Origin: Octopus vulgaris
Taxonomy: Eukaryota
Reading direction: 5' to 3'
NCBI GenBank assembly: GCA_951406725.2
Contig: OX597820.1
Location: forward strand, 120,962,001 to 121,026,000
Length of the DNA stretch: 64,000 nucleotides
The notes below the pieces were generated by a model. That model did not search any database. It saw nothing but the letters and a program-made list of their open reading frames with translations, and was not told the DNA's origin. Positions within the stretch are counted from its first letter, which is position 1. Each line of letters starts with the position of its first letter. The translations under genes and the position numbers were made by a program. Shown one piece after another: positions 58,479 through 59,497 of the stretch.

Positions 58479-59497
58479 TATATAGGTAAACAGTAAAAAT
58501 AATTACAGACATGGACAAGAACATGAAACACCACAGAGACGACACAAGAACCACAGGACGGGACATTCGAAGCCCTCAGTCATCAGTCAAGAACCAGATC
58601 ATCTTAGCAATTTCGGCTGATTAATCTTGAGATTGCTCCGATTTGGGCAGCCCGCCAAGGGAAATCTAAGCCAAGCGCATTAGATCCCCTGGAAGAAAGC
58701 TTCGAATGTATACAACACGAGGACGGAAAACGAACGAAGTACACGAACAAAAATACAGAATACGTGACACCAATAAGAATACAAAAACGTAAAAACAATA
58801 ACGGTAAAAATAAAAAACAAAACAAAACCAGGACGTAGGACAAGGGTCTTTCGACAGGACAAGTTGAGTTTAGGGCTGGCTTATGAAGTTGTGCCTAATG
58901 GCCGCAGGGAGACGAACAAATACGTGTTGCTTCGGCGACTGCTGGAACGAAAAGAGCGCTCAACAGTGGCTAGCGGTCACGTGAGAACAAAAGACAGGAG
59001 AAAGGGACAGATGAAAAGAGAGAGAAGGTGGACGAGGGAGGAGAAGAAAGAGACAGATCGAGGGGACTGGAGGTGAGAGAGATAGAGAAACGTAGAAGGG
59101 GGGGGGGGGGAAGACGGATGGAGAGGGAAAGAAAGGAAGGGGAATAAGGGAGGAGAGAGAGAGAGAGAAAGAGACAGATCAAGAGTCGTATCAATGCTAG
59201 AGAAAAAATATACTTATCGTATAAGGACAATTGTGGATACGTAGCCGCCGATTATATAGGTAAACAGTAAAAATAATTACAGACATGGACAAGAACATGA
59301 AACACCACAGAGACGACACAAGAACCACAGGACGGGACATTCGAAGCCCTCAGTCATCAGTCAAGAACCAGATCATCTTAGCAATTTCGGCTGATTAATC
59401 TTGAGATTGCTCCGATTTGGGCAGCCCGCCAAGGGAAATCTAAGCCAAGCGCATTAGATCCCCTGGAAGAAAGCTTCGAATGTATACAACACGAGGA
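58479..59497 (-). mobile_element. ~1-kb non-coding element with identical 245-bp direct repeats (pLTR/retrozyme-like)
   Basis: 58479-58723 equals 59253-59497, period 774 bp; flanked by TA-rich microsatellite; no ORF. Confidence 0.8.

What the first reader, a model, noticed from the sequence alone, without database searches (positions are those of the whole stretch)
58479..59497. Young 1-kb element whose identical 245-bp repeats fold into a stem plus pseudoknot with permuted hammerhead motifs
Seen: a perfect 11-bp stem ACATTCGAAGC/GCTTCGAATGT (58563/58699) encloses crossing pairs AGCAAT/ATTGCT (58606/58632) and GGCTG/CAGCC (58615/58648), plus a hairpin at 58655-58692. The minus strand reads tcagcc GAAA ttgc TA aga..tct tga CTGATGA ctga, i.e. 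hammerhead halves in type II order with extra bases. An older copy is at 22671. There is no ORF and no TG..CA ends. Inference: a retrozyme-like element; one cut per repeat would release a 774-nt monomer that could circularise, possibly via an atypical ribozyme.
Basis: partly seen in the sequence, partly recalled or inferred. Interest (0 to 1): 0.75.

Follow-up and report, generated by a model that had tools for sequence, protein, structure and literature searches.

The report
Knotted hammerhead ribozyme in octopus repeat
This is a young, non-coding jumping repeat whose tandem 774-base unit carries all the parts of a hammerhead ribozyme in a knotted order that standard searches miss. The RNA is predicted to cut itself and is likely copied back into the genome by a Penelope-type enzyme. 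The same fold ends several Naiad retroelements reported to lack a standard hammerhead.

Summary
The sequence facts hold, but the 245-bp repeats are not LTRs. Copies are head-to-tail arrays of a 774-nt unit with a fixed 3' end in (TA)n and scattered 5' ends (27 of 27 arrays). The minus strand holds a complete hammerhead core in cleavage-site / G-box / C-box order (type-SGC order), not type II. Unlike published SGC ribozymes, stem II is supplied from upstream: the backbone opens between A9 and G10.1 into a four-way junction, and stem III runs through a kink-turn. The fold recurs in other repeat families, in a LINE 3' UTR in this window, and in 3 of 13 published Naiad ends read (3 more partial). 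5' ends pile up just 3' of the predicted cut (19 versus 4, mostly one subfamily). Cleavage, circles and the helper enzyme are untested. Seven literature searches found no description. This scan noted the same fold earlier on other DNA (five notes, seen after my reading was formed). New variant of a known kind.

The parts
58479..59497 (-). Whole insertion, 1.31 tandem units (subfamily A); RNA sense is the minus strand
58483..59256 (-). One complete 774-nt monomer, from the TATA-like unit junction (59256) to the fixed 3' end; pyrimidine-rich, no ORF
59257..59497 (-). 5'-truncated upstream partial unit (source of the apparent 245-bp repeat)
58563..58709 (-). Ribozyme domain, downstream copy (147 nt, closed by outer stem P0: 58709-58695 with 58577-58563)
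59337..59483 (-). Ribozyme domain, upstream copy, identical; predicted cut between 59405 and 59404
58655..58692 (-). Hairpin Pa, fourth arm of the inferred junction, ending just before G10.1
   Evidence: same place in families F, I and Naiad loci
58648..58652 (-). Stem II 5' strand (G10.1 first), supplied from upstream; pairs with 58619-58615
   Evidence: 3 of 5 pairs double-changed, 97.4% paired
58637..58646 (-). Stem III extension 5' strand (58646-58640, pairs with 58600-58594) and non-bulged strand of the predicted kink-turn
58625..58636 (-). Block S: stem III strand 58636-58632 (U16.1 = 58632), H17 = C at 58631, predicted cut 58631/58630, stem I strand 58630-58625
58607..58619 (-). Block G: stem II 3' strand 58619-58615, G12-A14, stem III strand 58611-58607
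58594..58606 (-). Predicted kink-turn bulge (58606-58604), tandem G-A strand and stem III extension 3' strand
   Evidence: pattern in 61 of 62 subfamily-A hits
58580..58592 (-). Block C without its stem II strand: stem I strand 58592-58587 and C3-A9 box 58586-58580
   Evidence: N7 varies U/A/G across subfamilies
58411..58478 (.). (TA)n-type target microsatellite at the fixed 3' end; a (TA)/(TG)n tract also flanks the 5' end (59498-59551)
22671..22811 (+). Subfamily B copy, 5'-truncated 9 nt after the predicted cut, core G5 changed to A, between (TA)n tracts
42680..42790 (+). Sequence-unrelated ribozyme of the same layout (family I; H17 = 42732) in the 3' UTR of a truncated RT/REL-type LINE; no kink-turn

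Best explanation
The element is a non-coding tandem retroposon whose 774-nt unit carries a hammerhead core in a non-circular strand order; it is predicted to cleave its own RNA once per unit and is likely mobilised in trans by a (TA)n-targeting Penelope-type reverse transcriptase. Shown by sequence comparison: order stem II 5' strand, block S, block G, block C; stems I, II and III all covary. Inferred fold: stem III continues through a kink-turn into an extra helix that joins the far ends of stems I and II in a second three-way junction, while the link A9-G10.1 is replaced by a four-way junction with P0 and Pa. Inferred life cycle: read-through RNA is cut at 58631/58630; reverse transcription is primed at the fixed TATA-like 3' point 148 nt downstream of the cut; on a cut linear RNA it runs off near the cut (short copies such as 22671), while on a re-ligated 774-nt circle, or an uncut multimer, it passes the site and yields arrays of 1.2-3.3 near-identical units.
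For:: 97.3% of 623 cells paired, 8 of 16 pairs double-changed, 0 of 500 shuffles reach it, slid controls 15-45%; A15.1-U16.1 kept in 39 of 39, G10.1-C11.1 in 37 of 39 (plus one G-U); a downstream stem II strand of 4 or more pairs in 0 of 174 hits from eight families; kink-turn pattern in 122 of 132 hits from A-E and Naiad loci. Same layout with other sequences in families F, H, I and in Naiad_Ovul, Naiad_Obim and Naiad-3_Chem consensus ends (by eye); 218 exact matches to the Naiad motif in this genome, 0 for the control; 27 of 27 arrays share the 3' end in (TA)n; of 56 copies sampled by their 3' tail, 19 start 0 to 18 nt after the cut, 4 in the 19 nt before it, 1 in the next 19 nt (p 0.0013); 8 within 3 nt of it (8 of 27 local, p 2.6e-4). 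Units within an array differ by 1.17 per 200 nt, between arrays by 3.28 (22 arrays). Type-SGC hammerheads cleave in vitro (PMC10085705). A young intact PLE ending in (TA)n exists here.
Against: No cleavage assay. Eckert et al. assume the C box cannot be separated from its stem II strand, so an opened A9-G10.1 link could slow or stop catalysis. The 8 double changes come from only five related subfamilies (six from subfamily E alone). The 5'-end excess is mostly subfamily B (15 versus 3); subfamily A alone is not significant (4 versus 1, p 0.19; 2 of 27 within 3 nt); windows were chosen after seeing the data, and an AT-rich loop after the cut offers TA microhomology. 35 of 56 copies cross the cut, and none stops at the second cut. 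No autonomous partner by sequence: subfamily A has no match in 20 Naiad loci or in 44 GIY-YIG loci; the young PLE lacks the fold; Craig et al. call cephalopod Naiads long inactive. 7 of 13 Naiad ends read show no such fold. Kink-turn pattern strict in only 3 of 24 F hits and 0 of 18 I hits.
Confidence: 0.72

Rival explanations
1. The ribozyme is real but no circle is involved: arrays arise by the usual Penelope partial-tandem route (re-priming or template jumps on a linear RNA that starts at the unit junction), and cleavage only trims read-through RNA.
For: Partial tandems with 5' truncation are normal for Naiads and other PLEs; most arrays are 1.2-2 units; shared variants within arrays fit one linear template as well as a circle.
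Against: Arrays of 2.4 and 3.3 near-identical units (L024, L010); related animal retrozymes are shown to form circles (PMC7229834). Neither excludes it.
Confidence: 0.3
2. The fold is a hammerhead-derived but catalytically silent or very slow structure kept as a signal for the reverse transcriptase; the 5'-end excess comes from RT stalling and TA microhomology.
For: A9-G10.1 is not contiguous; 35 of 56 copies cross the site; many 5' ends lie at +5 to +18 rather than 0.
Against: All catalytic positions are conserved while N7, H17 and all stems vary as in active hammerheads, in families that share no other sequence; the step in 5' ends falls at the predicted cut.
Confidence: 0.15
3. First reader's type II hammerhead with extra bases, stem II formed by the bases after the C box.
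For: Four such pairs can be drawn in subfamilies A and B.
Against:: 67% paired, 1 double-changed cell, 468 of 500 shuffles reach its covariation score; broken in subfamilies D and E.
Confidence: 0.02
4. Assembly or local duplication artefact, or a plant-type LTR retrozyme with 245-bp LTRs.
For: The two repeats are identical.
Against: Dozens of dispersed arrays with different overlap lengths; holders in 11 studies; no TG..CA.
Confidence: 0.01

Closest known systems
Type-SGC non-circularly permuted hammerhead (HRIMA-1 and variants; Eckert et al. 2023, PMC10085705; parts 2-6 of 8 read, supplement listed but not read)
   Same: Blocks in order S, G, C; pseudoknotted core; short linker from stem I to stem II; all core positions.
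   Different: Stem II 5' strand lies upstream instead of after the C box, so block C is broken at A9/G10.1 by a P0/Pa junction; stem III extension with kink-turn instead of their stem I-II helix; found in an animal genome in thousands of copies, whereas theirs came from metatranscriptomes only.
Animal non-LTR retrozymes (Cervera and de la Pena 2020, PMC7229834, passages; Li et al. 2026, bioRxiv 10.64898/2026.07.22.740005, parts 1-3 of 5, supplements closed)
   Same: Non-coding head-to-tail repeats, one hammerhead per unit, Penelope-linked, GC under 50%.
   Different: Those carry type I hammerheads and about 300-nt units (51-972 in the preprint); circles are shown there, not here.
Naiad Penelope-like elements (Craig et al. 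2021, PMC8557442 and its preprint, passages; supplement parts 1, 9, 18, 24, 25, 27 of 59)
   Same: (TA)n target, 5' truncation, partial tandems; same ribozyme layout in 3 of 13 consensus 3' ends read, which the authors flagged in part as HHR_core or HHR_half_core without a fitting structure.
   Different: No ORF; no sequence match between subfamily A and Naiad loci of this genome; the fold also sits in an RT/REL-type LINE.

Membership tests
Hammerhead ribozyme | C3-A9 box with free N7, G12-A15.1 box, U16.1-H17 | tested here: met
   N7 = U, A or G; A15.1-U16.1 in 39 of 39
Hammerhead ribozyme | Stems I, II, III around the core with covariation; G10.1-C11.1 | tested here: met
   2 of 6, 3 of 5 and 3 of 5 pairs double-changed
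Hammerhead ribozyme | A9 joined to G10.1 with at most 1-2 inserted bases | tested here: not met
   feature as stated in PMC10085705
Hammerhead ribozyme | Site-specific self-cleavage after H17 | not testable with these tools
   indirect only: excess of 5' ends after the site
Type-SGC hammerhead | Block order S, G, C | tested here: met
Type-SGC hammerhead | Intact block C (stem II strand follows the C box) | tested here: not met
   0 of 174 hits in eight families; one 5'-truncated family G copy in the random sample had a downstream match
Type-SGC hammerhead | Extra helix joining the free sides of stems I and II | tested here: inconclusive
   none evident by eye; the stem III extension may take its role; not counted formally
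Non-LTR retrozyme | Non-coding tandem units, one ribozyme each | tested here: met
Non-LTR retrozyme | Type I hammerhead | tested here: not met
Non-LTR retrozyme | Monomeric circular RNA | not testable with these tools
   needs RNase R and northern blot
Non-LTR retrozyme | Target-site duplication | tested here: inconclusive
   hidden by (TA)n flanks
Naiad PLE | ORF with N-terminal GIY-YIG and RT | tested here: not met
   no ORF
Naiad PLE | (TA)n target, 5' truncation, partial tandem | tested here: met
Naiad PLE | Sequence homology of the 3' end to an autonomous element | tested here: not met
   0 of 20 Naiad loci, 0 of 44 GIY-YIG loci; search not exhaustive
Plant LTR retrozyme | Fixed LTRs with type III hammerhead | tested here: not met
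   overlap length varies with truncation

The most novel reading that the evidence does not exclude
A seventh natural hammerhead topology, built of four blocks with the catalytic strand ending at A9 and the core caged between two junctions by a kink-turn, is the hidden ribozyme of many Naiads, is shared with an unrelated LINE, and lets a 774-nt circular RNA spread by rolling-circle reverse transcription using a Penelope enzyme of another clade.
Probability: 0.4. Interest if true: 0.87.

Novelty: new variant of a known kind. Interest (0 to 1): 0.75.

Why it matters
It would break the published rule that the hammerhead's three blocks cannot be interrupted. It would be the first non-circular hammerhead in a genome of a known animal, at roughly ten thousand copies. 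It would also explain why Naiads seemed to lack hammerheads: the descriptors used could not match this order. A 147-nt transcript with a predicted cut (79 + 68 nt) tests it in a day, and a new descriptor could be run across invertebrate genomes.

Tried and rejected
Rfam: five sub-threshold simple-repeat matches around the element and none at gathering score in five other loci. Nested folding cannot show the core. Type II model rejected. A stem II strand 5 nt after A9 was rejected by eye because subfamilies D and E cannot form it. HDV-like, twister and SECIS readings were considered from recall and dropped once the hammerhead stems covaried; they were not tested formally. Expression: no RNA holder listed. 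Eight runs were laid, all contigs: in X1 one 760-nt contig wraps round the unit, and X2 (same study) gives two contigs consistent with that, but RNA status is a guess and tandem DNA gives the same picture; contig stops near the cut in X4, X5, X10, X14 can come from nearby variants; none of this is used as evidence. The P0 score is loose (best of many offsets, G-U allowed) and the upstream 4-bp test has a high chance rate; I rely on covariation instead. Partner search: a GIY-YIG search (150 scored of 6136 candidates) found a young 781-aa C-terminal-endonuclease PLE without the fold; one relaxed hit in L358 looked like chance. The family I ORF had no Pfam hit as a fragment, only E 0.15 to R2 proteins, and the Atlas gave no answer; the longer frame hit RVT_1. 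PMC10162972 and PMC13725137 passages held nothing on this layout. The scan's sequence and place look-ups were blank. The 5'-end distribution rests on 56 loci, not on a genome-wide count.

Full report
Observation. The two 245-nt repeats are identical and 774 nt apart, the 11-bp stem and both crossing pairs lie where stated, and a second copy at 22671-22811 is 84% identical. No ORF above 47 codons. Rfam knows nothing here. The genome is 2.8 Gb; I take it to be an octopus from repeats I recall and from 218 exact matches to a motif of the published Naiad_Ovul consensus.

The element. A search of the own genome scored 40 of 2733 candidates and returned 48 matches, most at 95-100%. Of 30 loci, 3 repeated an array already counted. 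All 27 distinct arrays end at the same point on the minus strand (26 exactly, one 3 nt short), followed by (TA)n, while their 5' ends fall anywhere from position 8 to 607 of the unit; they span 1.21 to 3.30 units (this set is biased to long copies by the query). So the 245-bp repeat is a partial tandem, and the RNA sense is the minus strand. Units within an array are more alike (1.17 differences per 200 nt) than between arrays (3.28; 22 arrays), and usually share minor variants, which points to one template per array. Related subfamilies B to E were collected stepwise, with periods of about 757-847 nt where two units were seen. Forty evenly placed 10-kb stretches held 3 profile hits, about 21,000 copies genome-wide (my Poisson range about 4,000-61,000).

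The RNA. On the minus strand the strands come in the order: stem II 5' strand (58652-58648), stem III extension, block S (stem III strand, U16.1, H17 = 58631, stem I strand), block G (stem II 3' strand, G12-A15.1, stem III strand), extension 3' strand, stem I strand and the C3-A9 box (58586-58580). On an alignment of 39 copies, 8 each of A, C, D, E and 7 of B, taken from 65 distinct full-length copies, this core is 97.3% paired with 8 of 16 pairs changed on both sides; 0 of 500 shuffles reach the score and slid controls pair 15-45%. These changes represent few events: six from subfamily E, one from D, one shared by D and E. N7 varies while the other core bases stay fixed.

What differs from the published permutation. 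Eckert et al. name this block order SGC, show that it cleaves, assume that the C box cannot be parted from its stem II strand, and found no SGC example in genomes of known organisms. Here the bases after A9 do not supply stem II in any of 174 hits from eight families; they start the outer stem P0, and a hairpin Pa ends just before G10.1. I infer a four-way junction (stem II, core, P0, Pa) in place of the A9-G10.1 link. Stem III continues through a 3-nt bulge with tandem G-A pairs, the kink-turn pattern as I recall it, in 61 of 62 A, 7 of 7 B, 22 of 26 C, 13 of 15 D, 12 of 15 E and 7 of 7 Naiad hits, but strictly in only 3 of 24 F and 0 of 18 I hits. Such a bend would bring the extension back to the far ends of stems I and II. 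The extension and P0 were not counted for covariation because the aligner shifted subfamily E by one base there.

The fold is not confined to this family. A sequence-blind scan gave 172 hits in 1.11 Mb of fetched loci and 0 in the reversed sequences (the loci were selected for these families). It uncovered families F, G, H and I. F and I were expanded and show the same layout, including P0 and Pa, with different stems; F is weakly similar to A. Family I lies in this window at 42680-42790, in the 3' UTR of a LINE: locus L316 has an RVT_1 domain (E 1e-14) followed by a restriction-like endonuclease region (motifs recalled, Hero-like), and the frame ends about 80 nt before the cut. Craig et al. 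report that Naiads lack canonical hammerheads though some hold core motifs that fit no descriptor. I read 13 of their 54 consensus 3' ends by eye (four names inferred from list order): the full layout in Naiad_Obim, Naiad_Ovul and the cnidarian Naiad-3_Chem; a degenerate or long-insert S-G-C order in Naiad_Esco, Naiad-2_Dst and Naiad-3_Dst; nothing seen in seven.

Footprint of cleavage. Copies were sampled by their 3' tails only (60 loci, 4 dropped as repeats of the same array). After correcting subfamily B offsets by 2 for alignment gaps, 19 of 56 begin 0-18 nt after the predicted cut, 4 in the 19 nt before it and 1 in the next 19 nt (p 0.0013); 8 begin within 3 nt. The signal is mostly subfamily B, A alone is not significant, the windows were chosen afterwards, two A loci share a flank and one is joined to another partial copy, and TA microhomology could add to it. 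35 of 56 cross the site, 10 extending more than 776 nt upstream of it, so templates were either uncut or re-ligated.

Mechanism. Shown: tandem structure, fixed 3' end in (TA)n, strand order, covarying stems. Inferred: self-cleavage at 58631/58630 (about 0.75), priming 148 nt downstream at the TATA-like junction by a Penelope-type enzyme, and circular templates (about 0.5; by analogy with animal retrozymes). The helper is unknown: subfamily A matches none of 20 Naiad loci or 44 GIY-YIG loci. A young intact 781-aa PLE that also ends in (TA)n is a candidate in trans, but lacks the fold.

Novelty. Seven searches found no paper describing this layout; the library lacks most subscription journals. 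The element works like a non-LTR retrozyme and its RNA like a type-SGC hammerhead, but it fails a defining feature of each. Five earlier notes of this scan reach the same fold on other DNA; I saw them after forming and testing this reading, and they are not independent support. Verdict: real feature, new variant of a known kind, interest 0.75.

Noticed in passing
window 42500-42855 (+); L192, L316:3496-6542: 3' end of an RT/REL-type LINE (Hero-like, recalled) carrying the same knotted hammerhead layout in its 3' UTR; 40 scored copies at 92-100%.
   Followed up: partly
window 22450-22640 (+): Another (TA)n-flanked non-coding repeat, directly upstream of the subfamily B copy, with what looks by eye like a minimal type I hammerhead of the Penelope kind.
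   Followed up: no
L347-L352 (e.g. G000:C5:1040000-1048000): Young intact 781-aa PLE with C-terminal GIY-YIG and an upstream ORF, partial tandems, 3' ends in (TA)n, mostly 96-99% alike (one at 91%); no C box found downstream of the ORF in L350.
   Followed up: partly
PMC8557442 supplement, Naiad-1_Chem, Naiad-2_Chem, Naiad-1_Skow 3' UTRs: These lack the knotted hammerhead but share a different conserved, structured-looking motif near the 3' end; possibly another ribozyme.
   Followed up: no
L084:2850-2940 (+) and L148 (-): Single copies of further families (H, G) with the same block order; not expanded.
   Followed up: no
window 56473-56718 (+) and 61998-63668 (-): A short frame resembling a PLE endonuclease tail (recalled, no Pfam hit) and a 556-aa LINE RT fragment (RVT_1).
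   Followed up: partly
subfamily A: No 5' end fell between 476 and 795 nt upstream of the cut among 27 copies, a gap covering the first 150 nt of the unit and the last 170 nt of the previous one; unexplained.
   Followed up: no
L054, L125: Some copies run 30-45 nt past the fixed 3' point into the start of the next unit, like the tail described for Naiads.
   Followed up: no
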